Below, piece after piece: positions 748 to 53,550 of a stretch of DNA of 64,000 nt. Every line of letters begins with the position of its first letter. Position 1 is the stretch's first letter. The translations under genes and the position numbers were made by a program. The stretch is taken from contig MNEF01000098.1 of the NCBI GenBank assembly GCA_001917535.1, positions 45,241 through 109,240 of the forward strand. Direction: 5' to 3'. Source of the stretch: Candidatus Rokubacteria bacterium 13_1_40CM_69_27 (lineage in GTDB: Bacteria; Methylomirabilota; Methylomirabilia; Rokubacteriales; CSP1-6). The notes beneath the pieces were generated by a model that was not told the origin of the DNA, made no database searches, and was given only the letters and a program-made list of their open reading frames with translations.

Positions 748-1536
748 TTATTTTCCCCGGAAATGGGGCTTGCGCTTCTCGTTGAAGGCCCGCACGCCCT
801 CGAGGCGATCCTCGGTGACGACGGTGGCGTTGTAGGCCTCGATGGCCAGGATCATCGCGGTGTCGAGGTCGGTCTCGAGGCCGTAGACGATGGCCTTCTT
901 GGCCTGGCGCACCGCCACCGGGCCGTTCTGGGCGATGGTCGCGGCGATCTCGAGCGCCCGGGCGCGGGCCTGTCCCTTGGGCACCAGGTGGTTGACGAGC
1001 CCGGCCGTCCTGGCCTCGTCGGCCTTCATGCGGCGGCCGGTGAAGATGAGCTCCTTGGCCAGCGGCGCGCCCAGGATCCGGGGCAGCAACTGCGTGCCGC
1101 CGATGCCGGGGAAGATGCCGAGCGTCGTCTCCGGCACGCCGAACACGGCCGTCTCGCTGGCCACGATGAAGTCGGAGAGGATGGCCAGCTCGCAGCCGCC
1201 GGCCAGCGCGAAGCCCTCCACCGCTGCGATGACGGGAACGGGGCAGCGGAGAATCCGGAACGCGGCTTGCTCGAAAACCACGTGTTGCGCCCGCCACGTC
1301 TCGTCCGACATCAAGTTGCGCTCCTTGAGGTCACCGCCGGCGCAGAAGGCGCGGTCGCCAGCGCCGGTCAGCACCACGGCGCGGATCTCGGCCTCGCGCT
1401 GGAGCGCGTCGAAACAGGCGATGATCTCCTCGCCCATGGCGGTGGTCATGGCGTTCATCTGCTCGGGGCGGTTCAACGTCACGGTGGCGACGTGTCCGTC
1501 CGGCGAGCGCTCGACCAGGAGATGCTGGTAGCTCAG
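748..1536 (-). CDS. Enoyl-CoA hydratase/isomerase (crotonase family)
   Basis: The protein reads LSYQHLLVERSPDGHVATVTLNRPEQMNAM...AFCAGGDL...VNGFALAGGCELA...AFNEKRKPHF, a crotonase fold. The arginine-rich N-terminal extension of the tracked ORF (to 1665) is rejected. The true start is near 1536, overlapping the stop of the upstream gene, and no canonical start codon could be pinned down. Confidence 0.75.
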   Translation of the reverse strand: MSYQHLLVERSPDGHVATVTLNRPEQMNAMTTAMGEEIIACFDALQREAEIRAVVLTGAGDRAFCAGGDLKERNLMSDETWRAQHVVFEQAAFRILRCPVPVIAAVEGFALAGGCELAILSDFIVASETAVFGVPETTLGIFPGIGGTQLLPRILGAPLAKELIFTGRRMKADEARTAGLVNHLVPKGQARARALEIAATIAQNGPVAVRQAKKAIVYGLETDLDTAMILAIEAYNATVVTEDRLEGVRAFNEKRKPHFRGK

Positions 1537-2723
1537 GCGATCACCCCCCGCGCGCGCAGGCTGCGCACGTCGTCGCGCGTGTAGCCGAGCCAGGTCAGCA
1601 CGTCCTCGCTGTGCTCGCCGAGCCGGGGCGGGCCGCGGCGCACCTCGGGCCGGCGGCCGTTCCACTGGATCGGCAGCCCGATGCTCGTGTAGTCGGGCAG
1701 GCGCGCGTGCGGCGCGCTCAGGAGCATCCCGCTCTCGCGCGTCTGGGGCTCCTCGAGCACGGCGTCGATCGTGAGGATCGGCGAGCAGGGCACGCCGCGG
1801 CTCCGCAGCCCCTCGACCAGCTCGCGGGCTTTCTTGTCGCGGGTCAGGGCCGAGAGGGCCTCGACGAGCGCCACCCGGTGGTGGACGCGCGAGGGGTTGT
1901 CCATGAAGCGCGCATCACGGGCGAGGTCGGGAACGCCCAGCCCCTCGGCCAGCCGCGCGAACATCGCGTCCGACGGCGCCGCGATCATGACGTGGCCGTC
2001 CGCGGTCGGGAAGGCCTGGTAGGGCGCGATCATCGCCGTGCCCGAGCCCTGGGGGGTGGGAACTTCACCCGACCCGAGATAGCCCATGGCCTGGTAGGAG
2101 ACCCACATGAGCGTCGTCTCGAAGAGCGCGGTGCTGACGTCCACCGCGCGGCCGGTGGCGTCGCGCTGACGGAGGGCGGCGACGATGCCCAGGGCTGCCC
2201 ACATGCCGGTGCCCATGTCGACGATCGAGGTGCCGACCCGGGCCGGCTCCTGGCCGGGATGGCCGTTGACGGACATGAGCCCCGCGTAGGCCTGCATCAT
2301 CGGATCGTAGCCGGGCAGGTCGCGCAGCGGACCGCGCGTCCCGTAGGCGGTGACGGAGCAGTAGACCAGCCGTGGGTTGAGCCGGCTGGCGGCAGCGAAG
2401 TCGAGGCCCAACTCGGCGACCACGCCGGCCCGGAGGCTCTGGACGAACACGTCGGCGCGGGCGACCAGTCGCCGGAGTACCTCGAGCCCGGCCTCGGTCT
2501 TGACGTCGAGCGCGAGGCTGCGTTTGTTGCGGTTCATGGCCAGGAAGAAGGCGCTCTCGTCGCCCCAGTACGGCGGCGCCCAGGCGCGAGCGTCGTCGCC
2601 GCGGTCGGGCCGCTCGATCTTGATGACGTCGGCGCCCATGTCGCCGAGGATCTGCGTGCAGAACGGTCCGGCGACGTTCTGGGTCAGGTCCGCGACGACC
2701 AGTCCCTCGAGCGGCAGCGCCAC
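1533..2723 (-). CDS. CoA-transferase family III (CaiB/BaiF-like)
   Basis: 396 aa with a GTG start at 2723. The protein reads LEGLVVADLTQNVAGPFCTQILGDMGADVIKIERP...AYDPMMQAYAGLMSVNG...RNKRSLALD, which are family III CoA-transferase signatures. Confidence 0.85.
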   Translation of the reverse strand: MALPLEGLVVADLTQNVAGPFCTQILGDMGADVIKIERPDRGDDARAWAPPYWGDESAFFLAMNRNKRSLALDVKTEAGLEVLRRLVARADVFVQSLRAGVVAELGLDFAAASRLNPRLVYCSVTAYGTRGPLRDLPGYDPMMQAYAGLMSVNGHPGQEPARVGTSIVDMGTGMWAALGIVAALRQRDATGRAVDVSTALFETTLMWVSYQAMGYLGSGEVPTPQGSGTAMIAPYQAFPTADGHVMIAAPSDAMFARLAEGLGVPDLARDARFMDNPSRVHHRVALVEALSALTRDKKARELVEGLRSRGVPCSPILTIDAVLEEPQTRESGMLLSAPHARLPDYTSIGLPIQWNGRRPEVRRGPPRLGEHSEDVLTWLGYTRDDVRSLRARGVIA

Positions 2724-2747
2724 GGGAGGGAGTCTACCACTGGGGAC

Positions 2748-3779
2748 TCAGCGCCGCGTCCCGCTGAGCTCCTGGCGGACCAGGGCCGCGCCGTCCGCCA
2801 GCGCCCGGAGCTTCTGGTTGCACATGTAGCGCGGCGACCAGCCGAAGCCGCAGTCGGGGTTGACCGTCAGCTTCTCGGTGGGGCACACCTCGAGCACGCG
2901 GCGGATTCGCCGCGCCACGTCCTCCGGCGTGTCCGGATAGAAGCCCTTCACGTCGATGAGGCCGGCGCCGAGCTCGCGCCCGTCGCCATGCTTCCTCCAG
3001 ATGTCCAGCTCGGCCAGTTCCCGGCTGGCGAACTCCAGCACGAACTGGTCGGCGCGTGCCTTGAGCAGCCCGGGGAAGTAGGGCTCGTAGGTCCGGGCGA
3101 AGCGCGAGCGGCCGAAGCGGTTGCCGAAGCAGATGTGAAAGCCGAGCTTGGCCTGCACGCCCTCGGTGGCCAGGTTGAACAGGCGCGCCATCTCCTCGCC
3201 GGAGACGTTGCCGCGCGCGGGCTCGTCGATCTGGATGAAGTCCGCGCCCGCCGCTACCAGCCCCTTGAGCTCCTCGTTGATGACCTCCGCGAACCGCTCG
3301 GCCACGTCGACCACGCCCCGATAGACCTTGCCGGGATGGATGCGGGAGCCGAAGGTGAGGGGCCCGGCGCACGTCGCCTTCGTCCGGCGCGTCGTGTGCG
3401 ATTTCAGGTATTCGAACTCCTTGATGATGCCCAGGCCGCCGGGCGGCGTCTCGATGCGGCCCACCGCCTGGTAGCGCGTCTGCTGGTCGTAGCCCCAGGG
3501 GCCGACGTGGCGCCGGACGGGCTGGGGATCGATCCCCTTGATGATGGCGTAGTAGGAGTCGACGTAGCCGTCGAGCCGGCGCACCTCGCCGTCGGTGATG
3601 ATGTCGATGCCCGCCGCCTCCATGTCGCCGATGGCGGCGTCGGCGGCGTCGTCGAACATCTCCTCGAGGTCGGCCGGGCCGGCCGCGCCGGCCTCGTACG
3701 CCTTGACCATGGTGAACCACCAGCCCGGCTTTCCGTGCGAGCCCACCACGGCGGTGGGAATGATCGGTAGCGCCCTCAT
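2748..3779 (-). CDS. Cobalamin-independent methionine synthase-like protein (MetE C-terminal/UroD-like fold)
   Basis: 343 aa reading MRALPIIPTAVVGSHGKPGWW...IDIITDGEVRR...FIQIDEPA...NPDCGFG, which matches the MetE-like 'methionine synthase II' family. Its ATG overlaps the livF stop (ATGA). Confidence 0.7.
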   Translation of the reverse strand: MRALPIIPTAVVGSHGKPGWWFTMVKAYEAGAAGPADLEEMFDDAADAAIGDMEAAGIDIITDGEVRRLDGYVDSYYAIIKGIDPQPVRRHVGPWGYDQQTRYQAVGRIETPPGGLGIIKEFEYLKSHTTRRTKATCAGPLTFGSRIHPGKVYRGVVDVAERFAEVINEELKGLVAAGADFIQIDEPARGNVSGEEMARLFNLATEGVQAKLGFHICFGNRFGRSRFARTYEPYFPGLLKARADQFVLEFASRELAELDIWRKHGDGRELGAGLIDVKGFYPDTPEDVARRIRRVLEVCPTEKLTVNPDCGFGWSPRYMCNQKLRALADGAALVRQELSGTRR

Positions 3780-4486
3780 GACACCGTCCCCCCGATGATG
3801 CGCAGGACCGTCGCATCACGCTGGGCGTCCTGCGGCTTGCCGGCGAAGATGATCTCGCCGCGCTCGATGACATACAAGCGGCTCGTATGCTCGGGCACGT
3901 GATGGATGTTCGACTCGGCCAGCAGGACGCCGTGCCCGAGCCGGGTGATGGCGGCGATGGACTGGCTGAGGGCCGGCAGGATCGCCGGCGAGAGCCCCTC
4001 GAAGGGCTCGTCCAGGAGCAGCAGCTCCGGGTCGAGGGCCAGGGCCCGGGCGACCGACAGCATCTTGCGCTCGCCGCCGGAGAGCTGCGTGCCCCCGCGC
4101 GCCGCGTAGGCGCGGAGCTCGGGGAACAGCGCCCAGGCGCGCTCGACGCGCTCGGCGGCGGACCGCGCCGTCGTGCGCGTCCAAGTGGCGATCTCGATGT
4201 TCTCGGCCACGGTCAGGTCGCCGAAGATCTCGCTCTCCTCGGGCGAGAAGCCGACGCCGAGCGCGGCGATCTCGTGGGTGCGCAGGCCGACGAGGGAGCG
4301 GCCCCTGAAGGTGATGCTGCCGGCGACGGGCCGCAGATACCCCATGATCGTGCGCAGCGTGGTGGTCTTGCCGGCGCCGTTGCGCCCGACGAGGCAGACC
4401 AGCTCGCGCTCGCCGACCTCCAGCCTGACGTCGTCGAGGATGCGGCTGGCCCGGATGTCGACCGTCAGCGCCTGGACCGCGAGCAT
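3776..4486 (-). CDS. livF: Branched-chain amino acid ABC transporter ATP-binding protein LivF
   Basis: 236 aa with a Walker A motif GRNGAGKTTTL, the ABC signature LSGGERKMLSVARAL and a Walker B motif LLLLDEP. It has the LivF-type short ATPase architecture. Confidence 0.85.
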   Translation of the reverse strand: MLAVQALTVDIRASRILDDVRLEVGERELVCLVGRNGAGKTTTLRTIMGYLRPVAGSITFRGRSLVGLRTHEIAALGVGFSPEESEIFGDLTVAENIEIATWTRTTARSAAERVERAWALFPELRAYAARGGTQLSGGERKMLSVARALALDPELLLLDEPFEGLSPAILPALSQSIAAITRLGHGVLLAESNIHHVPEHTSRLYVIERGEIIFAGKPQDAQRDATVLRIIGGTVS

Positions 4487-6345
4487 CAGGCCGGACGCTT
4501 GCCCAGCACGGTGGTCACCACGTGGGTGTCGGCCCGGATCTCAGCGGGGGTGCCGTCGGCGAGCAGCCGCCCCCCGTGGAGGGCGACGATCCGGTCCGAG
4601 TAGCCGAAGACGATGTCCATGTCGTGCTCGACCTGGATGATGGCCTTGATCGCGATGCGCTTGGCCGCCGCCACCAGGACCTCCATGATGGCGTGCTTGT
4701 CCCGCGTGCTGACGCCGGACGTGGGCTCGTCCAGGAGGATGACGTCGGGGTGGAGGGCGAAGGCGCCGGCCACGTCGAGCAGCTTCTTGTCCCCCTGAGG
4801 GAGCGTGCCGGCGAGGCAGGACAGCCGGTCGGCGAACCCGAAGAGCGCCGCCACGTCGCCGACCTGCGCCCGGACCTCCGCGTCGCGCGCCAGCGAGGCC
4901 AGGAGCCGGCGGCCGCGGCCCAGGCGCGAGACGACGGTGACCGCCAGGGTCTCGGCGACCGTGAGCCCCGGGAAAATGTTGACGAGCTGAAAGCTGCGGG
5001 CCAGGCCGAGCCGGACCAGGCGCACGGGCCCGATCCCGGCGACGTCCACGCCCTTGAACGTCACGCGGCCGCTCGACGGCTTTCCCAGCCCGCTCAGCAC
5101 GTTCACCAGCGTCGTCTTCCCGGCCCCGTTGGGGCCGATGATCGAGACGAACTCGCCCTCCCGGACCGCCAGCGACACGCCGTCGAGCGCCACCACGTCA
5201 CCGTAGAGCTTCACCACGTCTCGCGCTTCGATGAGCGGACGTGGGCGAGTGCCTGCAGGTCGGGCGCGTGACGGGAGCGGTTCGTGCGCCGGCTTGGCCG
5301 GCGTATCCACTGGGGAGGTTCGGAGGGGGCCGTGAGGCCCCCGCTGACTAGGGATTCGGAGGGGGCCGTGAGGCCCCCGCTGACGATGGATGTCGGAGGG
5401 GGCCGCCGAGGCCCCCTCCGAATCAAACAATCCCATGAGCCCGCGGGGGAAGCAGATGACCACGATGGCCAGGAGCGCGCCGAAGATGAATCTCCAGTAT
5501 TGCGTCAGGGACATGACCTGGTCCTGCAGGAAGATGAAGACGAAGGCACCCAGGATCGGGCCGAAGAAGTTGGCGAAGCCGCCCAGCAACAGCATGAAGA
5601 CCAGGTTGCCCGAGTGCGTCCAGTACGCCAGCAGAGGATCGGCCAGCCCGGTGGGCACGGCCAGCAGCGCTCCGCCGACGCCGCCGAACACGCCGGCGAT
5701 CACGAAGGCCGCCAGGCGGTAGCACCGCGCGCTCACGCCCACCGCCGCTGCCTTGTCGGGGTTCTCGCGGATCGCCCGCAGGCAGAGCCCGAAGGGCGAG
5801 CGCACGATGCGCCACATGACGACGGTGCCCAGGACCAGCAGCGCCAGCGCGTAGAAGTAGTAGGGGCCGGTGAGAAACTCGACCTTGTCGAGGAAGTCGA
5901 AGCCGCGGCCCAGGAGCTTCGGGCGCAGCACGCGCATGCCCTCGTCGCCCCCGGTCAGGGCGTAGAACTTGAAGAGGAACGAGTAGAAGAGCATCCCGAA
6001 GGCCAGCGTCAGCATGCCGAAGTAGATCTTGACGTAGCGCACGCACAAGAGGCCAGTGGGCACCGCCACCACCGCCGCCACCGCGGCCGCGGATACCAGG
6101 ATGGCCTCGAAGTGCACCATGCCGAAGGCGCTGGTCAGGTAGGCCGCGGTGTAGGCGCCGAGCGCCAGGAAGAGGGCATGGCCGAAGGAGAGCAGCCCGG
6201 TGTAGCCGAACAATAAGTTGAGGCCCAGCAGCGCCAGGCCGTAGCCGAAGAATGGCAGCATCAGGGTGGCGTAGTAGGCCCGGCCGGCGAAGGGCACCAG
6301 CGCCACCGCCAGCAGGGCCAGCCCGAGCGCGCCGCGGCCGATCAC
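4486..6345 (-). CDS. livM-livG: Fused LivM permease / LivG ATPase, joined by an in-frame repeat-derived linker
   Basis: A single frame with no stop runs through both domains. The LivM permease part (GVIGRGALGL ... ICFPRGLMGLFDSEG) starts at the GTG at 6345, overlapping the livH stop (GTGA). The LivG ATPase part (LIEARDVVKLYGDVVALDGVSL...GPNGAGKTTL...LSCLAGTLPQGDKKLLDVAGAF...LLDEPTSGV) follows a 12-aa x2 linker encoded by REP-like units. The 130-aa arginine-rich extension of the tracked ORF (to 6738) is rejected. Confidence 0.7.
   Translation of the reverse strand: MIGRGALGLALLAVALVPFAGRAYYATLMLPFFGYGLALLGLNLLFGYTGLLSFGHALFLALGAYTAAYLTSAFGMVHFEAILVSAAAVAAVVAVPTGLLCVRYVKIYFGMLTLAFGMLFYSFLFKFYALTGGDEGMRVLRPKLLGRGFDFLDKVEFLTGPYYFYALALLVLGTVVMWRIVRSPFGLCLRAIRENPDKAAAVGVSARCYRLAAFVIAGVFGGVGGALLAVPTGLADPLLAYWTHSGNLVFMLLLGGFANFFGPILGAFVFIFLQDQVMSLTQYWRFIFGALLAIVVICFPRGLMGLFDSEGASAAPSDIHRQRGPHGPLRIPSQRGPHGPLRTSPVDTPAKPAHEPLPSRARPAGTRPRPLIEARDVVKLYGDVVALDGVSLAVREGEFVSIIGPNGAGKTTLVNVLSGLGKPSSGRVTFKGVDVAGIGPVRLVRLGLARSFQLVNIFPGLTVAETLAVTVVSRLGRGRRLLASLARDAEVRAQVGDVAALFGFADRLSCLAGTLPQGDKKLLDVAGAFALHPDVILLDEPTSGVSTRDKHAIMEVLVAAAKRIAIKAIIQVEHDMDIVFGYSDRIVALHGGRLLADGTPAEIRADTHVVTTVLGKRPA
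5319..5421. repeat. Three tandem REP-like palindromic units lying in frame inside the livM-livG junction
   Basis: Units of ttcggagggggccgtgaggcccccgctgac at 5319-5348 and 5355-5384 (36-bp period), followed by a perfect palindrome tcggagggggcc gccga ggccccctccga at 5393-5421. Other copies of the same family lie elsewhere in the window. Confidence 0.85.
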
Positions 6346-7202
6346 GCCGCCGCCCTCGCGAAGAGCCCGGCCGGGCGCAGGACGAGGACGGCGATGACGA
6401 TCACGTAGATGCCCAGCATCTCTAGCTCGGGGTAGATCGCGATGGCCACCGCCTTGAGCACGCCCACGATGAGCGCGCCGGCGAACGCCCCGCGCATGCT
6501 GCCGAGCCCGCCGATGACGACGACGGCGAAGGCCTCGACGATCAACTCGATGCCCATCTCGTTCATCGCCGCCGTGGCCGGGATGACGAGCGCGCCGCCC
6601 ACCGTGCCCAACGCGACGCCCAGCGTGAAGACGCGGGAGTAGAGGCGGGGCAGGTCGATGCCCAGCGCTTCGGCCATGCGCGGGTTCTCGGCGGCGGCGC
6701 GAACGAGGCGACCGAAGCGCGTGCGCGTGAGCAGCCACCCCACGGCGGCGGCGATGGTGGCGCCGGCGGCGATGACGACCAGGTTGTAGACGGGAATGGT
6801 GAGGGCGCCGACCTTGAGCTGGCCGTATATCAGATAAACGGAGCCGAGCTGGTGGGGGGCGGTGCCCCAGAAGAACCGGATCACGTCCTCGAACATGAGC
6901 ACGAGGGCGAAGGTGAGCAGGAGCTGGAAGCTTTCGTCGCGGTCGTAGATGGTCCGGAGCAGCCGCTCGACCGGAGGGCCGATCGCGGCCAGGAGGACGC
7001 CGCTCAGGATCAGGATGCCCAGGAAGAGGGATGGCGGGGCGCCAGCCCCCAGGGCCCAGGTGACGAGCGACACGCCGAAGTAGGCGCCCAGCGCGTAAAA
7101 CGAGCCGCAGGCCAGGTTGAGGATCTTCTGGACGCCGAAGACGAGTTGCAGCCCGGCCGCCGCCAGAAAGAGCACGGCGGCATGGAACACGCCGCCGAGC
7201 AC
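6342..7202 (-). CDS. livH: Branched-chain amino acid ABC transporter permease LivH
   Basis: 286 aa, hydrophobic, with a LivH-like N-terminus (IQQSVNIVLGGVFHAAV...GSFYALGAY). The GTG at 7202 is the tracked start. The frame stays open upstream, so the true start may be up to about 60 nt further 5', overlapping the binding-protein stop. Confidence 0.8.
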   Translation of the reverse strand: MLGGVFHAAVLFLAAAGLQLVFGVQKILNLACGSFYALGAYFGVSLVTWALGAGAPPSLFLGILILSGVLLAAIGPPVERLLRTIYDRDESFQLLLTFALVLMFEDVIRFFWGTAPHQLGSVYLIYGQLKVGALTIPVYNLVVIAAGATIAAAVGWLLTRTRFGRLVRAAAENPRMAEALGIDLPRLYSRVFTLGVALGTVGGALVIPATAAMNEMGIELIVEAFAVVVIGGLGSMRGAFAGALIVGVLKAVAIAIYPELEMLGIYVIVIAVLVLRPAGLFARAAA

Positions 7203-7239: not shown

Positions 7240-8511
7240 TCACGCCTTCCAGCTGTTGATCCACTCGTAGAGGCCCGTGCCGGAGGGCTTCTGGATCTGC
7301 CGGGTGGACATCACCTCGACGGGGTCGATCGTGACGAAGTCGTGCTTGTTCCGGTGGGTGCTGAGGCCCTGGAAGAAGCTGCACTCCATGACGTGGTCGG
7401 CCCGGTAGCTGCGCTTGCCCGACAGCGACTCGACCTCGATGCCCTCGAGCGCCTCGATGATCTGGTCGGTGGACGGCCACTTGCCGCCCGCGGCCCTGGC
7501 GGCCTTCTCCACCGCCGCCCGGTAGGCCGCCAGCGTGAAGTAGGCGTGGTCCGATTCGTAGTTCGGCCACTCCTTGAACCGCTCCTGGTGCCAGCGGACG
7601 AATTCGCGGAGGAGCGGGCTCGCGTTGGGCGCCTCGAAGTACATGGAGTTGTAGCCGAGGATCATCCCCTCGGGCGTGAACGCCTTCTTGAGCGACTCGT
7701 GAACGCCGCCGGCCGTGGTCATGACAAACTTGGTGGTCGCCGTCAGCCCGGCCGCGTGCGCCTGCTTCATTAAAATCGGGGCGTCGGCCGACCAGAACGA
7801 GCAGAAGATCAGGTCGGGCCTGGCCTGCCCCAGCGCGGCCACGTGCGAGGTGAAGTTGGTCTCGCCCAGCTTGGGCCAGAGGTCCACCACCGGCGTGACG
7901 CCCATCTCCAGCTTCTTCATGATGGCCAGGAACGCCGCCCAGTTGTCGCGCCCGTACGAATAGTCGTTGTTGATGCCGGCGACCGTCTTGATCTTCCCCT
8001 TGAGGTGCTTGGCGGTCAGGATCGACGCCATCACGGCTTCCGCTTCGTTATCGACGCTGCGGAACGAGTACCGGGGCTTCGGCATGGTCTCCTCCACGCC
8101 CTTCTGGGTCGTGGCATCCCAGGCCAGCCACAGCGTCTTGAGCTCCTCGGCGACGGGGCCGATGGCGAGACCCACCCCCGTGGAGACGACGCCGGTGATG
8201 ACGTCCACCCTGCTCTGGAGGCCGAGCTTGCGAAACCGCTCCACCGTGTCCTTGGGGTTCGACTCCTCCTCGACGACCAGCTCGATCCGGCGGCCGAGGA
8301 TGCCGCCGGCCGCGTTGATGCGGTCCACGGCGAACTGCGTGCCACGGAGCCCGGACTCCCCCACCGGCGCCGTGACGCCGGCCTTGGCGGCCAGCACGCC
8401 GATCTTGACAGGACCCGTCTGCGCGAACGCGGGCGGCACGTCCAGCCGCGCCGCCAGCGCGCCGGAGGCGCCGCCAAGCAGTCTCAGAAAGGTGCGCCGG
8501 GTCGTGGCCAT
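7240..8511 (-). CDS. livK: Tat-exported ABC transporter substrate-binding protein (Liv/branched-chain amino acid type)
   Basis: It has a twin-arginine signal MATTRRTFLRLLGGASGALAA, and the mature protein has a type I periplasmic binding fold (KIGVLAAKAGVTAPVGESGLRGTQFAVDRINAAGGILGRRIEL). The start is chosen at the internal ATG at 8511 (MATTRR) rather than the tracked 8538. Confidence 0.8.
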   Translation of the reverse strand: MATTRRTFLRLLGGASGALAARLDVPPAFAQTGPVKIGVLAAKAGVTAPVGESGLRGTQFAVDRINAAGGILGRRIELVVEEESNPKDTVERFRKLGLQSRVDVITGVVSTGVGLAIGPVAEELKTLWLAWDATTQKGVEETMPKPRYSFRSVDNEAEAVMASILTAKHLKGKIKTVAGINNDYSYGRDNWAAFLAIMKKLEMGVTPVVDLWPKLGETNFTSHVAALGQARPDLIFCSFWSADAPILMKQAHAAGLTATTKFVMTTAGGVHESLKKAFTPEGMILGYNSMYFEAPNASPLLREFVRWHQERFKEWPNYESDHAYFTLAAYRAAVEKAARAAGGKWPSTDQIIEALEGIEVESLSGKRSYRADHVMECSFFQGLSTHRNKHDFVTIDPVEVMSTRQIQKPSGTGLYEWINSWKA

Positions 8512-8653
8512 ACCAGCCTCCCTCGGTGTCCGAAGCATTCGTGCCGCCCGCAGGGCGCCTCATTCTAGCGCGCTTGATCGTCAGCGGCCACGGCCAGCAT
8601 GCTAGAATTCGTGACGCCGGCGCTAGAGATTCTGTCCGATCGATGGAGGGCTC

Positions 8654-10894
8654 GTGCACGTACGCTTCTGGGGAACGCGCGGCTCCGTCGCCGCTCCCGG
8701 CCCGGCCACGGTGCGGTACGGCGGTAACACCTCCTGTGTCGAGGTGCGCAGCGACGACGGCACCCTGATCGTGCTCGACTGCGGCACCGGCGCCCGGGCG
8801 CTCGGCCTGCACCTGGCGCGCTCGGAGCCCCAGCCCCTCCGGCTCAACCTCTTCATCGGGCACACCCACTGGGATCACATCCAGGGGTTTCCCTTCTTCG
8901 TCCCGGCGTTCATGCCGGGCGTCGAGCTGAACATCTACGCGCCCGTCGGCTTCCAGCGCAGCCTGGAGGAGGCGATGGCGGGGCAGATGGAGTACGCCTA
9001 CTTCCCGGTGACGCTCCGCGACCTGCGGAGCCGCATCCACTTCACGGAGCTGGACGAGGGCTTCTTCCGCCTGGGCGAGGTGCTGGTCGAGACGCAGTAT
9101 CTCAACCACACCGCGCCCACCATCGCCTACCGGATGTCGGCGGGCGGCGCCACCATCGCCTACACGACCGACCACGAGCCGTTCTGGAAGCCGGCGGGCG
9201 GGGTCTCCGACCATCCGGGCGACCAGAACCACATCACGTTCCTGCGCGGCGCCGATCTCGTCATCCATGACGCGCAGTACAGCGACGAGGAGTACCAGAG
9301 CAAGATCGGGTGGGGCCACAGCCCCGTCGAGTACGCCACCGATGTCGCCCTGGCCGCCGGCGTGCGCCGCCTTGCGCTCTTCCACCACGACCCCACCCAC
9401 GATGACGCCATGATCGAGCGCATGGAAACGGGAGCCCGTGACCGCGCCGCCCGCGCCGGCGGAGGCCTGGAGGTCTTCGCGGCCGCCGAGGGGCTCGAGC
9501 TGCGGGTGGACGGGCGGGGCGCCGCCAAGCCGATCGCGGCGGCCTCGGCGCTCCACCGCCGTCCGGTGGCCGGCGGACGCGTCCTCCTGGTGAGCTCCAA
9601 CGGCAGCGAGATCGCGGCCATCGAGGAGATTCTGGCAGCGGACGATCTGTCGGTGGTCGCAGTGCCGGACATGCGCGCCGCGTTGGCCCGCGGGCCCGAG
9701 GTCGCCCCCGACCTGGCGATCGTCGACGCACGACTGCCCGACGGCGACGGCGCCGCCCTCCTCCGCCCGCTGGTCGAGCGCATGGGGCGACGAAACTTCC
9801 CGATGCTGCTCCTCACCGAGGAGCCGAGCGCGGCGCGGGCGGCCGAGAAGGCCGGCGCGCCCTTCTGCGATTACCTGGCCAAGCCCTTCAGTCCGCCGAT
9901 GCTCCACGCGCGGGTGCGGGCCTGGCTGGCGCGGGCGCTGGCCACCGCGGAGACAGCCAGCCCCGACCGCGCCGAGGTTCGCCGGGCCGACGAGCCCCGC
10001 GATTTCGCCGGCATCCTCGCCCAGTTCCCGCTGTTCCAGCCGCTCGGGGGTGAGCGGCTCCGACATCTGATCCAGGGCGCCACCGAACACGCCTATCCGG
10101 CCGGCCACGTTATCGTCAGCGAGGGCGAGTTCGACGACCGCGTCTTCGTCATCCTCTCCGGGCGCGTCCGCGTGGTCGAGGCGATGGCGGACGCGATGAC
10201 CGAAGCGGTCCTGGGCGGGCTGGGGGAAGGGGAGATCTTCGGCGAGCTGAGCACGCTGACCGGCCGGCCGCGCTCGGCGACCGTCATCGCCATGGAGCGA
10301 ACCCGCTGCCTGGCGCTTCGTCACGAGCGCTTCCTCCAGGCGCTCGAGGGCTCCTCTGAAGTGGCGCTGGCTCTCCTGCGGCTGCTCGCGGGGCGGCTGC
10401 TCGAGGCCGACCGCCGGCTGGCCCGCTACGCTCCCGACACGCTGACCGGTCTGGCCAGCCGCCGCGCGTTTCACGACCAGTACCGGCGGCTCGCCGCCGG
10501 CGCCCGGCGCCGGAAGAGCGGTGTGCTGCTGTTGCTCTTCGACGTCCTGCGTCTGAGGACGATCAACGACCGTTTCGGCTACACGGTCGGCGACGAGGTG
10601 CTGCGCACCGTTGCCGACGCGCTCACCAGCACCACGAGGGCCACCGACCTCGTCGCCCGCTACGGCGCCGACGAGTTCGCCCTGCTCCTGCTGGACACGC
10701 ACGCCGACGACGTCGATCGGGTGCTGCGCCGCGTGGCGGAGAAGCTCGCGGAGCTGTCGGGCCGCCGGGGGCTATCGCTCACCGTGCAGTGCAGCGTCGG
10801 CGTCTCCTTCCGCGAGGTTCCGCCGGACATCGCCGACGAGCTGGTGCGGGAGGCGGACGGAGACATGCGCCGCGGCCGTCTCGTGCCGGCCTGA
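8654..10894 (+). CDS. Four-domain signalling protein: MBL-fold metallohydrolase, receiver (REC), cyclic-nucleotide-binding (cNMP) and GGDEF domains
   Basis: GTG start at 8654 with a GGAGGG ribosome-binding site 5 nt upstream. Residues 1-270 are an MBL fold with the HxHxDH motif GHTHWDHIQG. Residues around 300-410 are receiver-like (DLAIVDARLPDGDG, LLLTEE, YLAKPF), but the acidic pair is replaced (LLVSSNGS). Residues around 440-560 are a cNMP-binding domain (GEIFGELSTLTGRPRSATV). Residues around 575-746 are a GGDEF domain with an intact I-site RATD followed by an A-site RYGADEF (a GADEF variant). Confidence 0.8.
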   Translation: MHVRFWGTRGSVAAPGPATVRYGGNTSCVEVRSDDGTLIVLDCGTGARALGLHLARSEPQPLRLNLFIGHTHWDHIQGFPFFVPAFMPGVELNIYAPVGFQRSLEEAMAGQMEYAYFPVTLRDLRSRIHFTELDEGFFRLGEVLVETQYLNHTAPTIAYRMSAGGATIAYTTDHEPFWKPAGGVSDHPGDQNHITFLRGADLVIHDAQYSDEEYQSKIGWGHSPVEYATDVALAAGVRRLALFHHDPTHDDAMIERMETGARDRAARAGGGLEVFAAAEGLELRVDGRGAAKPIAAASALHRRPVAGGRVLLVSSNGSEIAAIEEILAADDLSVVAVPDMRAALARGPEVAPDLAIVDARLPDGDGAALLRPLVERMGRRNFPMLLLTEEPSAARAAEKAGAPFCDYLAKPFSPPMLHARVRAWLARALATAETASPDRAEVRRADEPRDFAGILAQFPLFQPLGGERLRHLIQGATEHAYPAGHVIVSEGEFDDRVFVILSGRVRVVEAMADAMTEAVLGGLGEGEIFGELSTLTGRPRSATVIAMERTRCLALRHERFLQALEGSSEVALALLRLLAGRLLEADRRLARYAPDTLTGLASRRAFHDQYRRLAAGARRRKSGVLLLLFDVLRLRTINDRFGYTVGDEVLRTVADALTSTTRATDLVARYGADEFALLLLDTHADDVDRVLRRVAEKLAELSGRRGLSLTVQCSVGVSFREVPPDIADELVREADGDMRRGRLVPA

Positions 10895-10909: not shown

Positions 10910-10983
10910 TCGGAGGGGGCCTTGATGGCCCCCTCCGAAGCCTCCCCCAGGAAGGGGTTGCACCGGCGAAGCCGGCGCTCGAA
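10910..10983. repeat. REP-like palindromic element between convergent genes
   Basis: tcggagggggcc ttgat ggccccctccga at 10910-10938, a perfect 12-bp stem. It is followed by a conserved tail, cctcccccaggaaggggttgcaccggcgaagccggcgctcgaa, which is also seen at 15256-15292. Confidence 0.85.
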
Positions 10984-14057: not shown

Positions 14058-15154
14058 GGAATCCTCACGAACCCTTCCATCAGGCGACGCGCCGTTCGGT
14101 AGACGGTCACGCACTCCGCCCACGGTTGGCCGTCGCGAATGGTCACCGTGGCGGCGACGGGCAGCACGCCCGACGGGTGGCCGAGCCTGAGATCACCCTC
14201 CTTGCCGCCGAGCGCGCATTCGTGGACCACCGTGCCCTCGACGCGGGCGGCCACCGCCAGACACATGGCGGCGGTCAGCGCGAAGGCCCGGTGACAGTTG
14301 CCCATCGACATGACGCGCGCCAGCAGGTCGACCTGGTCGGAGGCGTAGGGTGTCCCGTCGAGCGCCCGGAAGGGCGCGGCCCGAGCGACAACCGCGATCT
14401 TGGGGACGGCGGCGCTTCCGGGAACGCCCATCCGGCCGGCGGCCTCGACCCGGATCGCCTCGAGGCGGGCCCCGACCGCGCGATCGGCATCGATCGCCTC
14501 CGGCGTCTCGGCGCCCGTGAGCCCGAGATCCCGGGCCCGGACGAAGACCACGGGGTTGGTGGCGTCCACCAGCGAGGCCTCCACGCCGCCGACCGCGTCG
14601 CGCGGCCGGCCCGTCGGCAGCAGCCGCTCGGTGGCCGCGCCGCCGGGGTCGAAGAAGTCGAGCGCGATCCTGGCGCCGCTGCCGGGCACGCCGGCCAGCT
14701 CGAAGTCACCTTCCACCGCCGCCTCGCCGTCCTTCACCGGCACGTGGGCCACGATGATCTTCCTGGTGTTCGTGTTGTGGATCCGCACGATCTTCTCGTC
14801 GGCGCCGGCGGGTACGATCTTCTCGTCGATGGCGAACGGGCCGACAGTGGCCGAGCAGTTGCCGCAGTTGCCGGCGTAGTCCACGACGGGGTTCCTCACG
14901 TCGACCTGGGCGAACGTGTAGTTCACATCGGCGTCGGAACGGGTGGGCGGGCCGATGATACACGCCTTGGAGAGCGACGAGATGCCGCCGCCGAGACCGT
15001 CGAGCTGCCGGCCGTAAGGGTCGGGGCTGCCCAGCGCGGCGAGGAGGATGCGATCGCGCGCCGGCCCCGGATGCGGCAGGTCCTCCTCGTGGAAGACGAG
15101 GCACCGGCTCGTCCCGCCACGCATGTAGACGGCCCGGACCCGGCGCTGCGTCAT
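14054..15154 (-). CDS. prpF: PrpF family 2-methylaconitate isomerase (PrpF/AcnD-accessory)
   Basis: 366 aa reading MTQRRVRAVYMRGGTSRCLVFHEEDLP...CGNCSATVGPFAIDE..., the PrpF/methylaconitate isomerase family signature. Confidence 0.8.
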   Translation of the reverse strand: MTQRRVRAVYMRGGTSRCLVFHEEDLPHPGPARDRILLAALGSPDPYGRQLDGLGGGISSLSKACIIGPPTRSDADVNYTFAQVDVRNPVVDYAGNCGNCSATVGPFAIDEKIVPAGADEKIVRIHNTNTRKIIVAHVPVKDGEAAVEGDFELAGVPGSGARIALDFFDPGGAATERLLPTGRPRDAVGGVEASLVDATNPVVFVRARDLGLTGAETPEAIDADRAVGARLEAIRVEAAGRMGVPGSAAVPKIAVVARAAPFRALDGTPYASDQVDLLARVMSMGNCHRAFALTAAMCLAVAARVEGTVVHECALGGKEGDLRLGHPSGVLPVAATVTIRDGQPWAECVTVYRTARRLMEGFVRIP

Positions 15155-15157
15155 ATC

Positions 15158-15298
15158 CTCGGAGGGGGGTTACGCCCCCTTTCCTCCGTCGGAGGGGGCC
15201 GTCGAGGCCCCCTCCGAGATCCCTGGTCGGAAGGGGCCTCGCGGCCTCCTCCGAGCTACCCCAGAGGATTGCGCCGGCGGAGCCGGCGCTCGAAGCGT
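15158..15298. repeat. Cluster of three REP-like units plus the conserved tail, between the aconitase gene and prpF
   Basis: A degenerate unit at 15158-15188, the perfect unit tcggagggggcc gtcga ggccccctccga at 15189-15217, the variant tcggaaggggcc tcgc ggcctcctccga at 15227-15254, and the tail ccccagaggattgcgccggcggagccggcgctcgaa at 15256-15292. Confidence 0.85.
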
Positions 15299-15327
15299 CG
15301 TCGTCCCCCGCGCTGCGACCGATGGGG

Positions 15328-31342: not shown

Positions 31343-31540
31343 GACATCCTGTGTCAACCTTCGAATTGCATGCAGCGGCCACGCGCTGGGCGGCACAGTG
31401 AAGCATGACGTCGTAGGGACGGCGGTCTTGCCAGCAGCGCCACAGGACGCGAACTCACGCGCGGGCCAGGACGCGGATCGCGTGGGGATGATGGCAGCCC
31501 CGCCGGCGTGCGGCGGCGTAGATCGCCGCCGCCCAGGGCC

Positions 31541-31569
31541 TCGGAGGGGGCCGTCGAGGCCCCCTCCGA
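31541..31569. repeat. REP-like palindromic element
   Basis: tcggagggggcc gtcga ggccccctccga, a perfect 12-bp stem, lying between convergent genes (the permease and the ferredoxin-like protein). Confidence 0.85.
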
Positions 31570-41455: not shown

Positions 41456-42244
41456 ATGGTGGTTCGGCGCTGCGTCTGGCATCGCAAGTATCGCGGGTAC
41501 CCCCTCGTGTACGGCGTCGCCTCGTGGCGCGACCCGAGCATCGCCTTCAGCGATGGCATCTGCCGCCGGTGCACCGTCCGCCTGCGGGAGGACCTGCGGT
41601 TTCCCCCTCACGTGGTGGACTCGGCGCCGGAGGCGCCGGCGTGGGAGCCGCTGGTGCCGGGGACCGCGGTCGCGCTCGCCGTCATCGCGACGCTGCTGAT
41701 CGTCACGCAGCCCCTCGACGCGCCCCCGCCGGCGCGGATCGTGACGCCCGAGCCCCCGCGGGCCGTTGTCGACGCGGCCCTCGATCGCGCGGTCCGGATC
41801 GAGTCGCGGGGGGTGAGCCGGCCGGGCCCGCACCGAACCGTCACGACGAGGTCCAAGGCAGACGAGTCGGCGCTGCCGAGAGCGGCGGTGGCGATGCGTC
41901 CAGGGCGGCCTCTCCTCGCATCGGCAACGGGGGCCCGCCCGGCAGCCGCGAGCCCGCCCGGAGTGATCGCGTTCAACGACCGCGCGGCCGCGGGCGCCGG
42001 GTTGGGGATGCAGGCCCCCGAGGTCATCGAAGGGGGCCTCGACGCCCCCTGCGAGCCTCTCCCAGAGCCGATTGCGCCCGCGAAGCCGGCACTCGAACCG
42101 CGGTTACTCCGACAGCCCCTAGCCGACGCGGCGCCGCCTCAGGCGTGCGAGGGGCCGGCGGTGTCCTCGGCGCGCACCGGCGTCCGGCCACGCAGGAAGT
42201 CGAAGTCGCAGCCCTCGTCGGCTTGCAGCACGTGGTCGAGGTAG
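41456..42244 (+). CDS. Hypothetical Cys-rich membrane protein with a Pro-rich tail
   Basis: It starts MVVRRCVWHRKYRGYPLVYGVASWRDPSIAFSDGICRRCTVRL, a C-x2-H...C-x2-C zinc-ribbon-like module. This is followed by one TM helix (AVALAVIATLLIV) and then a long Pro/Ala-rich region whose 3' end overlaps the convergent dehydratase gene by about 100 nt. Confidence 0.35.
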   Translation: MVVRRCVWHRKYRGYPLVYGVASWRDPSIAFSDGICRRCTVRLREDLRFPPHVVDSAPEAPAWEPLVPGTAVALAVIATLLIVTQPLDAPPPARIVTPEPPRAVVDAALDRAVRIESRGVSRPGPHRTVTTRSKADESALPRAAVAMRPGRPLLASATGARPAAASPPGVIAFNDRAAAGAGLGMQAPEVIEGGLDAPCEPLPEPIAPAKPALEPRLLRQPLADAAPPQACEGPAVSSARTGVRPRRKSKSQPSSACSTWSR

Positions 42245-47683: not shown

Positions 47684-47746
47684 CCGGCGATTGGAGCGGC
47701 CCGACGTAGAGCCGTTCGAGCGCGGGCTTCGCCCGCGCAATCCTTG

Positions 47747-47787
47747 CTGGGGGAGGTTTCGGAGGGGGCCGTCGAGGCCCCCTCCGA
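47747..47787. repeat. REP-like palindromic element (full unit with leader)
   Basis: ctgggggaggtt tcggagggggcc gtcga ggccccctccga, lying between convergent genes (the small membrane protein and the DJ-1 gene). Confidence 0.85.
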
Positions 47788-53437: not shown

Positions 53438-53484
53438 CGGCGTGTTGGAGTACGCACCGGATCTGGACTCCTCCCGTTCGAGCG

Positions 53485-53550
53485 CCGGCTTTGCCGGCGC
53501 CACCTGTTCCTGGGGGAGGTTTCGGAAGGGGGGCGAAGCCCCCCGCCGAG
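53485..53550. repeat. REP-like element (variant) plus a short hairpin
   Basis: gccggc ttt gccggc at 53485-53501, then ctgggggaggtt tcggaagggggg cgaa gccccccgccga at 53510-53549. It lies between convergent genes (the RraA-family gene and the M23 peptidase). Confidence 0.75.

What the first reader, a model, noticed from the sequence alone, without database searches (positions are those of the whole stretch)
5319..5421. livM and livG are fused by an in-frame tandem REP insertion that encodes a 12-aa repeat linker
The reading frame runs without a stop from the LivM permease (ending ...ICFPRGLMGLFDSEG) into the LivG ATPase (PLIEARDVVKLYG...).

- The junction consists of three REP-like units.
- The first two have a 36-bp period, which is a multiple of three.
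- They translate to QRGPHGPLRIPS / QRGPHGPLRTSP on the coding (minus) strand.
- Either a normal livM stop and livG start were replaced by repeats that happen to preserve the frame, producing a genuine permease-ATPase fusion, or the element insertion is recent.
- Palindromic repeats entering a coding sequence in frame is rare and is a neat example of repeat-driven protein innovation.
Basis: seen in the sequence. Interest (0 to 1): 0.65.

Follow-up and report, generated by a model that had tools for sequence, protein, structure and literature searches.

The report
Repeat-element linker fuses LivM to LivG
In this soil Rokubacteria genome, a copy of a genome-wide palindromic repeat sits between the permease gene livM and the ATPase gene livG and is read in frame, so the two are made as one 619-residue protein; this is a tidy but not unprecedented case of "junk" repeats becoming a protein linker.

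Summary
On the minus strand one ORF (GTG 6345 to stop 4486, 619 aa) runs from a LivM permease domain through a 192-nt spacer (5236-5427) into a LivG ATPase domain. The spacer holds three GC-rich hairpins, two of them a 36-nt tandem repeat, followed by a fourth hairpin.

The "REP" label is justified. The spacer contains a full copy of a ~72-nt composite palindromic element that occurs six times in the window. The other five copies lie between genes.

About 140 orthologous loci have separate, translationally coupled livM and livG with junctions of 10-80 nt. Element-bearing junctions are confined to one Rokubacteria/Methylomirabilota sub-clade. Some of those lineages keep a livM stop and a livG ATG. 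Five have lost both and are fused.

The fusion is old (dS about 0.6-0.7 between fused lineages) and appears to be under selection:
- All five inferred linker indels are multiples of 3.
- dN/dS is about 0.24 for LivG against 0.57 for the linker.
- No livG start with a Shine-Dalgarno sequence remains.

Only the 36-nt duplication looks recent. At least four assemblies reproduce the ORF, so it is not an artefact.

In-frame repeat insertions and LivM-LivG fusions are each already known, so this is a new variant of known kinds. Translation of the fused product has not been shown experimentally.

The parts
4486..6345 (-). Fused livM-livG ORF, 619 aa. GTG start at 6345 overlaps the livH stop (GTGA). 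The TGA stop at 4486-4488 overlaps the livF ATG.
   Evidence: the identical or near-identical 619-aa protein occurs in at least 4 assemblies
5428..6345 (-). LivM permease domain, aa 1-306, ending ...FPRGLMGL.
   Evidence: Pfam PF02653 at aa 28-295, E 1.5e-35; GC3 0.95; dN/dS 0.18 against L001
5236..5427 (-). Repeat-derived linker, 64 aa, FDSEGASAAPSDIHRQRGPHGPLRIPSQRGPHGPLRTSPVDTPAKPAHEPLPSRARPAGTRPRP. Rich in Pro/Arg/Gly/Ser and predicted disordered.
   Evidence: GC3 0.69, measured over 5239-5412, against 0.95/0.96 in the flanking domains; AlphaFold2 coil with pLDDT about 27-30; dN/dS 0.57; RNA fold -97.2 kcal/mol, z -4.6
5393..5421 (-). Hairpin A, canonical form: TCGGAGGGGGCC-N5-GGCCCCCTCCGA, 12-bp perfect stem. 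It starts 6 nt after the last LivM-core codon and encodes ...SEGASAAPS.
   Evidence: 5 exact copies in the window, 0 expected
5355..5390 (-). 36-nt tandem unit, first on the coding strand. A-type hairpin variant GGGGGCC-TCAC-GGCCCCC, encoding QRGPHGPLRIPS.
5319..5354 (-). 36-nt tandem unit, second on the coding strand, encoding QRGPHGPLRTSP. Together with the spacer and hairpin B it forms the complete composite element.
5281..5346 (-). Complete copy of the dispersed composite element: last A hairpin, CCTCCCCAG spacer (5305-5318), hairpin B CGCCGGC-CAA-GCCGGCG (5286-5304), then ACGAA.
   Evidence: nhmmer hit, E 2.3e-13, to a profile that included this copy as well as the five intergenic ones; independent of the profile, it aligns over its full length with those five copies; hairpin B found
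4489..5235 (-). LivG ATPase domain, aa 371-619, starting LIEARDVVKLYG. Contains Walker A GPNGAGKT. There is no ATG at the ancestral start position; that codon is now CGT (Arg).
   Evidence: Pfam PF00005, E 2.1e-24; NCBIfam LivG/UrtD-like; GC3 0.96; dN/dS 0.24; start-codon comparison
6342..7202 (-). livH, the second permease subunit, translationally coupled to livM.
7240..8538 (-). livK-like periplasmic binding protein.
3776..4486 (-). livF, the second ATPase subunit. Its ATG shares one base with the livMG stop.
10910..10983 (+). Intergenic copy of the composite element, 16 nt after the stop of the upstream gene.
15155..15327 (+). Intercistronic cluster between two co-directional minus-strand genes: three A-type hairpins plus B. 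This is the unfused equivalent of the liv junction.
42027..42097 (+). Intergenic copy of the composite element.
47715..47787 (-). Intergenic copy of the composite element.
53477..53544 (-). Intergenic copy of the composite element, between convergent genes.

Best explanation
This is a genuine single-polypeptide LivM-LivG subunit (permease plus ATPase) of a LivKHMGF-type ABC importer. The 64-aa region between the conserved domain cores, mostly linker, is encoded by a dispersed REP/BIME-like palindromic element.

**Inferred history**
1. Ancestrally, livM and livG were separate and translationally coupled, with overlapping stop and start (TGATG or GTGA) and a junction of about 26-41 nt.
2. In an ancestor of one Rokubacteria sub-clade, a composite element (A hairpin(s), CCTCCCCCAG spacer, B hairpin, TCGAA) landed in the last codons of livM. 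Because the element is GC-rich and almost free of stops, the livM frame read through it to a stop next to the livG ATG. This state survives in L002 and L013 and keeps the coupling.
3. Later indels brought the livM frame into register with livG. The stop and the livG ATG were lost, and LivG can now be made only as the C-terminal part of LivM.
4. Since then the linker has drifted freely in sequence and length (120-192 nt), but only by frame-preserving changes. The 36-nt (12-aa) tandem duplication in this genome is one of them.

**How it works (inferred)**
The peptide acts as a disordered cytoplasmic tether. It fixes a 1:1 LivM:LivG stoichiometry and pairing, leaving LivH to pair with LivF. At the RNA level, ribosomes must unwind about four strong hairpins.

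**Shown:** ORF continuity, element identity, comparative distribution, and signatures of selection.
**Inferred:** the order of events, translation of the fusion, and the tether role.
For: **ORF and domains.**

**Element family.**
- Five exact A hairpins occur in the window against 0 expected.
- Six full composite copies align end to end. The other five are intergenic.

**Ancestral state.**
- About 60 orthologs from genomes and about 78 from metagenomes are separate, with short junctions free of the element and a retained livG start.
- Typical junction sequences show TGATG or GTGA overlaps.

**Element-bearing junctions.**
- They occur almost only in the clade with at least 78% identity.
- Fused: the window, L001, L005, L006 and L007, with spacers of 192, 168, 168, 147 and 120 nt.
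- Separate intermediates: L002-4 and L013, where livM stops 4 nt before, or overlapping, the livG ATG.

**Phylogeny.** Fused loci group together in a neighbour-joining tree, near the element-bearing separate loci.

**Signatures of selection.**
- Indels between fused lineages are 3, 27, 18 and 66 nt. A one-copy variant differs by 36 nt.
- All five are multiples of 3, about (1/3)^5 = 0.004 if unconstrained. The separate pair L002/L013 differs by a 1-nt indel.
- dN/dS is 0.18 for LivM, 0.24 for LivG and 0.57 for the linker. dS to L005, L006 and L007 is 0.6-0.7.

**Start codon.**
- The livG ATG is replaced by Arg, Ser, Ser and Gly codons in four fused lineages.
- No Shine-Dalgarno motif precedes the only in-frame GTG in the linker (sequence).

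**Reproducibility.**
- An independent ENA contig differs at 4 of 6,560 nt and carries the same ORF.
- GenBank holds the same 619-aa protein as OLC13287.1, OLC30873.1 and OLE38178.1, and JGI holds further copies.

**Structure.** The AlphaFold2 model shows the linker as coil with the lowest pLDDT, while the LivG domain scores 85-93.
Against: - There is no direct evidence of translation of a fused product: no proteomics or Ribo-seq.
- The deep nodes of the tree are poorly supported (bootstrap 15-48). A single origin of the fusion, and the order "insertion then fusion", are therefore plausible but not proven. A short-junction locus, L105, nests weakly inside the group.
- Stop-free frames are cheap in 71% GC DNA. 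One other frame of the linker is also open, so ORF openness alone is weak evidence.
- Indel counts depend on pairwise alignments of repetitive sequence. The 36-nt event is a multiple of 3 simply because the unit is.
- L007 keeps a GTG at the ancestral livG start position, so independent initiation cannot be excluded there.
- The LivM part of the structure model is poor because the alignment is shallow.
Confidence: 0.8

Rival explanations
1. The ORF is continuous, but the functional products are still two proteins. LivG would be initiated internally, for example at the in-frame GTG at 5304-5306 or at GTG codons in ...DVVKLYG. The read-through LivM extension would be an irrelevant by-product of a stop-poor, GC-rich intercistronic repeat.
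For: - An in-frame GTG exists in the linker (VDTPAK...).
- L007 retains a GTG at the ancestral start position.
- The linker has non-coding-like composition, GC3 0.69, and relaxed dN/dS of 0.57.
- Sister lineages with the same element do make two proteins.
Against: - There is no livM stop, so every ribosome that finishes LivM continues into LivG. The fused chain is made regardless.
- No Shine-Dalgarno-like sequence precedes the GTG at 5306; the upstream sequence is CGAACCTCCCCA.
- The GTGs inside DVVKLYG would truncate the conserved first beta-strand of the ATPase domain.
- Indels in fused lineages are all multiples of 3. That would be unnecessary if LivG started on its own.
Confidence: 0.1
2. 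The fusion is an assembly or sequencing artefact, or a decaying pseudogene. An indel error in the G5/C5 runs of the hairpins would hide a real stop or frameshift.
For: - GC-rich hairpins and tandem 36-nt repeats are error-prone for short-read assembly.
- All the data come from metagenome-assembled genomes.
- Several more distant homologues in the protein database do look frameshifted (P0011, P0013, P0018, P0024).
Against: - The same 619-aa ORF is recovered in at least 4 independent assemblies from NCBI, ENA and JGI.
- Five diverged lineages with different linker sequences are all open and in frame.
- Both domains are under purifying selection, with GC3 0.95-0.96.
- No single-base shift in the linker restores a normal short LivM tail followed by a livG ATG.
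Confidence: 0.03
3. The primary selected function is at the RNA level, and the encoded peptide is merely tolerated. The hairpin array could act as an mRNA stabiliser or processing site, or as a translational pause that times membrane insertion of LivM or tunes LivG output.
For: - Hairpin stems are conserved as structures across lineages while the peptide sequence is not.
- The fold is very stable, z = -4.6.
- The same family sits at the 3' ends of genes and between cistrons elsewhere in the window. That is where REP elements are known to act on mRNA in enterobacteria (established knowledge).
Against: - Hairpin number and identity vary widely between fused lineages, from 1 to 4 perfect stems of 7 bp or more. 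L001 has lost perfect stems altogether.
- More than 140 orthologs work without any hairpin.
- This reading is not exclusive of the fusion explanation.
Confidence: 0.07

Closest known systems
Rickettsia palindromic elements (RPE) and other small repeats found in frame inside ORFs (BRE of Bordetella, BOX/RUP of pneumococcus, intragenic ERIC)
   Same: A short, dispersed palindromic repeat is read in frame as part of a host protein without destroying it. The inserted peptide sits outside the conserved domains. Repeats that extend the 3' end of genes are also described, which matches the L002/L013 intermediate state (PMC10969869, PMC3184786).
   Different: - The sequence family and the phylum differ.
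- RPEs insert inside single genes and do so frequently: nearly half of the 44 copies in R. conorii lie within ORFs. Here only 1 of 6-7 copies in the window is coding.
- This copy bridges two cistrons and turns them into one protein.
- I found no described case of a REP-type element forming the linker of a fusion between two subunits in the papers searched. That search was limited.
REP / BIME elements of Enterobacteria and Pseudomonas (repetitive extragenic palindromes, mosaic clusters)
   Same: - GC-rich imperfect palindromes of about 20-30 nt.
- Many dispersed copies just downstream of stop codons and between cistrons, including ABC-transporter operons.
- Mosaic clusters of two hairpin types with conserved spacers, and tandem amplification of units.
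   Different: - There is no sequence similarity and no GTAG-type 5' signature.
- Association with a RAYT transposase was not examined.
- The element is in a different phylum, Methylomirabilota/Rokubacteria.
- This copy is intragenic, which by definition is atypical for REPs.
Naturally fused HAAT-family subunits annotated 'branched-chain amino acid ABC transporter ATP-binding protein/permease'
   Same: The architecture is the same: an N-terminal BPD_transp_2 permease and a C-terminal ABC_tran ATPase, joined by a low-complexity linker of 30-60 aa. NCBI's annotation pipeline already gives this name to two close relatives, P0004 and P0126.
   Different: - The classical fused proteins are only 30-38% identical, for example L082 of Pseudomonas putida and L087 of Fulvimarina. 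Their linkers carry none of this element family (nhmmer). They represent older, independent fusions.
- Within the window's own orthologous group the normal state is unfused.
- Two further independent fusions without the element exist: L169, and L170, which keeps the livG ATG.

Membership tests
REP/BIME-like dispersed palindromic repeats | Short (about 20-40 nt) GC-rich imperfect palindrome able to form a stable stem-loop | tested here: met
   Hairpin A has a 12-bp stem and 5-nt loop. Hairpin B has an 8-bp stem and 3-nt loop. The junction folds at -97.2 kcal/mol, z -4.6.
REP/BIME-like dispersed palindromic repeats | Many dispersed copies, predominantly extragenic (3' of genes or intercistronic) | tested here: met
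   There are 5 exact A hairpins against 0 expected and 6 full composite copies in 64 kb. The other five lie between genes. The genome-wide copy number was not measured.
REP/BIME-like dispersed palindromic repeats | Mosaic clusters that combine different hairpin types with conserved spacers; variable tandem copy number | tested here: met
   The order A(1-3 copies), CCTCCCCCAG spacer, B, TCGAA is conserved in all six copies. L005 has two tandem composites.
REP/BIME-like dispersed palindromic repeats | Association with a RAYT (Y1 transposase) gene flanked by the repeats; conserved 5' GTAG-like tetranucleotide | not tested
   No search for a RAYT gene was made in the window or in related genomes. 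No GTAG signature is evident at the hairpin borders.
MITE (miniature inverted-repeat transposable element) | Terminal inverted repeats and target-site duplications flanking the element | tested here: inconclusive
   The two ends, hairpin A and hairpin B-TCGAA, are not inverted copies of each other. No flanking duplication was obvious in the six copies. No empty-site/filled-site pair was analysed at base resolution.
Rickettsia palindromic elements (RPE) | Membership of one of the RPE sequence families of Rickettsia; frequent in-frame insertion in many unrelated ORFs | tested here: not met
   The phylum differs and the sequence is unrelated. Only one of 6-7 copies in the window is inside an ORF. 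The resemblance is functional, not by descent.
HAAT-family ABC importer, fused LivM-LivG type ('ATP-binding protein/permease') | BPD_transp_2 permease domain and ABC_tran ATPase domain in one polypeptide, with intact Walker A, Walker B and H-loop | tested here: met
   PF02653 at aa 28-295 and PF00005 at aa 387-543. GPNGAGKT, ILLDEP and VEHDM are invariant across the alignment. Both domains show low dN/dS.
HAAT-family ABC importer, fused LivM-LivG type ('ATP-binding protein/permease') | Operon context with a second permease, a second ATPase and a periplasmic binding protein | tested here: met
   livK at 7240-8538, livH at 6342-7202 and livF at 3776-4486, all on the minus strand and coupled. The same synteny is seen in L001-L008.
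HAAT-family ABC importer, fused LivM-LivG type ('ATP-binding protein/permease') | The fused polypeptide is actually produced and functional | not testable with these tools
   Only indirect evidence is available: frame-preserving indels, loss of the livG start, and purifying selection on LivG.

The most novel reading that the evidence does not exclude
Translational coupling may channel repeat insertions into gene fusions. When a stop-poor, GC-rich palindromic element lands between two cistrons whose stop and start overlap, the only well-tolerated outcomes are read-through of the element up to the next start, or outright fusion. REP-type elements in high-GC genomes would then be a recurrent source of new C-terminal tails, interdomain linkers and subunit fusions. 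The retained in-ORF hairpins may additionally act as a programmed translational pause between membrane insertion of LivM and folding of LivG. The livM-livG junction was hit at least twice independently, in the window's clade and, in the opposite orientation, in L159. All stages are visible in extant lineages: empty, inserted with read-through, inserted after the stop, and fused.
Probability: 0.2. Interest if true: 0.65.

Novelty: new variant of a known kind. Interest (0 to 1): 0.45.

Why it matters
This locus gives a step-by-step natural series for how a selfish or neutral intergenic repeat can become protein-coding and weld two subunits of a membrane complex into one chain. The series runs from the empty junction, to a repeat read as a C-terminal tail, to a fused protein whose linker drifts in length.

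It also defines an apparently undescribed, high-copy composite palindromic element in Rokubacteria/Methylomirabilota, at about 6 copies per 64 kb.

For annotation, it shows that "hypothetical protein" entries such as OLC13287.1 are LivM-LivG fusions, and that repeat-derived linkers explain the length variation among them.

It does not change the understanding of ABC transporters or of REP biology in any fundamental way.

Tried and rejected
- **First motif search.** It used a 4-nt loop (GGGGGCC-N4-GGCCCCC) and found the motif essentially only at the liv locus. That wrongly suggested the repeat was local. A systematic hairpin scan and the 5-nt-loop pattern revealed the dispersed family.
- **Rfam.** No family matched at gathering thresholds. 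Only spurious microRNA-like hairpin hits appeared at permissive E-values.
- **Early hypothesis of an ancient fusion.** I first supposed the fusion was ancestral to the whole orthologous group and that repeats had merely invaded an existing linker, based on fused homologues at 56-60% identity. I rejected this. About 140 orthologs are unfused. The 56-60% fused proteins are independent events (L169, L170) or look frameshifted (P0011, P0012, P0013, P0018, P0024).
- **Metagenome scan**. It returned no additional fused, element-bearing loci, so the fused sample stays small at five lineages.
- **P0016.** The DNA could not be fetched.
- **Phylogeny.** The Biopython bootstrap timed out and was redone with numpy distances. 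The resulting tree is only weakly resolved at the nodes that matter.
- **Structure.** AlphaFold2 with a 9-sequence alignment gave a poor LivM domain. I used it only for the linker and LivG, and ran no fold search.
- **Not done.** I made no RAYT search and no genome-wide census of the element.
Full report
**1. What is in the sequence**

On the minus strand a single ORF runs from 6738 to 4486. The biologically sensible start is the GTG at 6345, which overlaps the livH stop as GTGA. This gives a 619-aa product.

Pfam places a BPD_transp_2 permease domain at aa 28-295 and an ABC_tran ATPase domain at aa 387-543. NCBIfam scores the C-terminal half as LivG/UrtD-like.

Between the last conserved LivM residues (...FPRGLMGL) and the first conserved LivG residues (LIEARDVVKLYG) lie 192 nt, at 5236-5427, with no stop. 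Tandem Repeats Finder reports 5319-5416 with period 36 and 2.7 copies.

Each unit is a GC-rich hairpin. The third unit, 5393-5421, has a perfect 12-bp stem. A fourth, different hairpin lies at 5286-5304. The spacer folds at -97.2 kcal/mol, z = -4.6.

Third-position GC drops from 0.95 and 0.96 in the two domains to 0.69 in the linker. The linker therefore does not look like long-standing coding sequence.

**2. The repeats belong to a dispersed family**

My first pattern, with a 4-nt loop, found nothing elsewhere. A hairpin scan and the pattern TCGGAGGGGGCC-N5-GGCCCCCTCCGA then found five exact copies in the window: 5393, 10910, 15189, 31541 and 47759. Shuffles gave none.

A second hairpin type, B (GCGCSGGC-N3-GCCSGCGC), sits next to A at most of these sites. 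Lining the copies up shows a composite element of about 72 nt: A hairpin(s), CCTCCCCCAG-N-ATT, B hairpin, TCGAA.

A profile built from the alignment finds six full copies in the window:
- the liv copy at 5281-5346 (-)
- 10910-10983 (+)
- 15227-15294 (+)
- 42027-42097 (+)
- 47715-47787 (-)
- 53477-53544 (-)

By a crude GC3-based gene map and ORF listing, the other five lie between genes. The copy at 15155-15327 fills a 173-nt intercistronic gap with three A hairpins plus B. It is effectively the unfused equivalent of the liv junction.

Rfam has no matching family. "REP-like" is therefore a fair label, more precisely BIME-like. Association with a RAYT transposase was not examined.

**3. Comparative evidence**

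The protein search returned fused relatives at 91%, 70-74% and 56-60% identity. It also returned stand-alone LivM proteins at 76-80%.

I fetched syntenic loci with the order livK-livH-livM-livG-livF-Meth_synt_2. I then scanned species-representative genomes and metagenomes. For each locus I measured the junction between the LivM and LivG cores.

- **Ancestral state.** Roughly 140 orthologs with 55-84% LivM identity have separate genes. These come from Proteobacteria, Rokubacteria/Methylomirabilota and others. Junctions are 10-80 nt, free of the element, and keep a livG ATG or GTG. Typically the livM stop overlaps the livG start as TGATG or GTGA. This is the classic arrangement for translational coupling.
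- **Where the element occurs.** Element-bearing junctions are almost confined to the clade with at least 78% identity.
- **Fused loci.** The window (192 nt), L001 (168), L005 (168, two tandem composites), L006 (147) and L007 (120).
- **Separate but element-bearing loci.** L002-4 (127 nt) and L013 (131 nt). There the livM frame reads through the element as a 38-41-aa tail and stops 4 nt before, or overlapping, a retained livG ATG. L099 (59 nt) has a truncated element.
- **Independent insertion.** The more distant lineage L159 (66% identity) has the element in the opposite orientation, after the livM stop.
- **Fusions without the element.** L169 has a 177-nt linker. L170 has a 57-nt linker and keeps the ATG.
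- **Classical fused family.** Proteins of the "ATP-binding protein/permease" type are only 30-38% identical. Their linkers carry none of this element family (nhmmer).

**4. Is the fusion real and selected?**

- **Reproducibility.** An independent ENA contig differs from the window at 4 of 6,560 nt and carries the same ORF. GenBank proteins OLC13287.1, OLC30873.1 and OLE38178.1 are the same 619-aa protein. They come from Candidatus Rokubacteria bacterium 13_1_40CM_69_27 and 13_1_20CM_2_70_7 and are annotated "hypothetical protein". This also indicates the likely source organism.
- **Start codon.** At the position of the ancestral livG ATG, four fused lineages have Arg, Ser, Ser and Gly codons. 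L007 has GTG. The only in-frame GTG in the window's linker, at 5304-5306, has no Shine-Dalgarno sequence upstream.
- **Indels.** Those separating fused lineages are 3 and 27 nt (window vs L001) and 18 and 66 nt (L005 vs L007). A read-derived fragment, P0010, has one QRGPHGPLR unit instead of two, a 36-nt difference. All five are multiples of three. The unfused pair L002/L013 differs by a 1-nt indel.
- **Substitution rates.** Between the window and L001, dN/dS is 0.18 for LivM, 0.24 for LivG and 0.57 for the linker. Synonymous divergence to L005, L006 and L007 is 0.6-0.7. The start-less LivG domain has therefore stayed under purifying selection for a long time.
- **Structure.** An AlphaFold2 model shows the linker, residues about 307-370, as coil with pLDDT about 27-30. 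The LivG domain scores 85-93.

Together these points argue that LivG is made as part of a fused polypeptide. Selection appears to maintain the reading frame of the linker but not its sequence.

**5. Order of events**

A neighbour-joining tree of concatenated LivM and LivG cores groups the five fused loci. It places them near the element-bearing separate loci L002 and L013. Bootstrap support at these nodes is weak (15-48), and the short-junction locus L105 intrudes.

The most economical reading is one insertion, then read-through tails, then one fusion, followed by lineage-specific remodelling of the linker. The 36-nt duplication in the window's lineage belongs to that last stage. This history is inferred, not shown.

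**6. Relation to what is known**

In-frame fusion of small dispersed repeats with host ORFs is documented for several families. Known cases include insertion inside genes and extension of gene 3' ends, for RPE, BRE, BOX/RUP and ERIC elements (PMC10969869; PMC3184786).

LivM-LivG fusions are common enough to carry a standard NCBI product name, which is applied to the close relatives P0004 and P0126.

I did not find a described case where a REP-type element forms the linker that joins two subunits, nor any description of this element family in Rokubacteria. These were limited full-text searches.

**7. Verdict**

- Age: the fusion is old, and only the tandem duplication is recent.
- Causation: the element provided the raw material, and fusion needed further changes.
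- Rarity: in-frame repeat insertions are already documented.

This is a new variant of known kinds and of moderate interest.

Noticed in passing
window 10910-10983, 15155-15327, 31541-31569, 42027-42097, 47715-47787, 53477-53544: An apparently undescribed composite palindromic element occurs at about 6 copies per 64 kb: A hairpin(s), CCTCCCCCAG spacer, B hairpin, TCGAA. Most copies sit just 3' of genes or between cistrons. The copy at 31541 has hairpin A paired with a different upstream hairpin (31510-31532).
   Followed up: partly
window 15140-15175 (minus strand); L159 about 2440-2482: In two unrelated places the 3' arm of an A-type hairpin is followed directly by the start codon of the next gene (CCCCCCTCCGAGGATATG and CCCCCCTCCGAGATATG). 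The 5' arm of hairpin A contains a perfect GGAGG and the 3' arm a CCUCC. The element may therefore supply or mask ribosome-binding sequences.
   Followed up: no
window 2748-3779 (-) and 1533-2747 (-): A gene for a Meth_synt_2 protein (catalytic domain of cobalamin-independent methionine synthase) is translationally coupled to livF. It follows the transporter in all syntenic loci examined (L002-L008). In the window a family III CoA-transferase gene follows it. The transporter's substrate may therefore not be a branched-chain amino acid.
   Followed up: partly
window 8627-10894 (+): A divergently transcribed gene encodes a 755-aa multidomain protein: Lactamase_B_2, response-regulator receiver, cNMP-binding and GGDEF. 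It is conserved next to the liv operon in L005, L006, L007 and L171. A copy of the palindromic element starts 16 nt after its stop.
   Followed up: partly
L169 (939-2789) and L170 (1501-3228): Two further independent livM-livG fusions occur in other Methylomirabilota lineages without this element. One has a 177-nt Pro/Thr/Ala-rich linker. The other has a 57-nt linker that still carries the livG ATG. Fusion of this gene pair seems to recur.
   Followed up: partly
L159 about 2349-2480; L099 junction: L159 has an independent insertion of the same element family into the livM-livG junction, in the opposite orientation and after the livM stop. L099 has a truncated derivative (hairpin A plus the end of B). 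The junction may be a preferred landing site.
   Followed up: partly
window 5180-5220: Tandem Repeats Finder reports a 21-nt, 2-copy repeat inside the LivG N-terminus (DVVKLYG / DVVALDG). It coincides with the conserved first beta-hairpin motif of LivG-type ATPases and is probably just sequence similarity within that motif.
   Followed up: no
window 1611-3770 (+), 8048-10702 (-), 5284-6216 (+): Very long ORFs (310-884 aa) lie antisense to real genes. They are shadow ORFs typical of 71% GC DNA and should not be annotated as genes.
   Followed up: no
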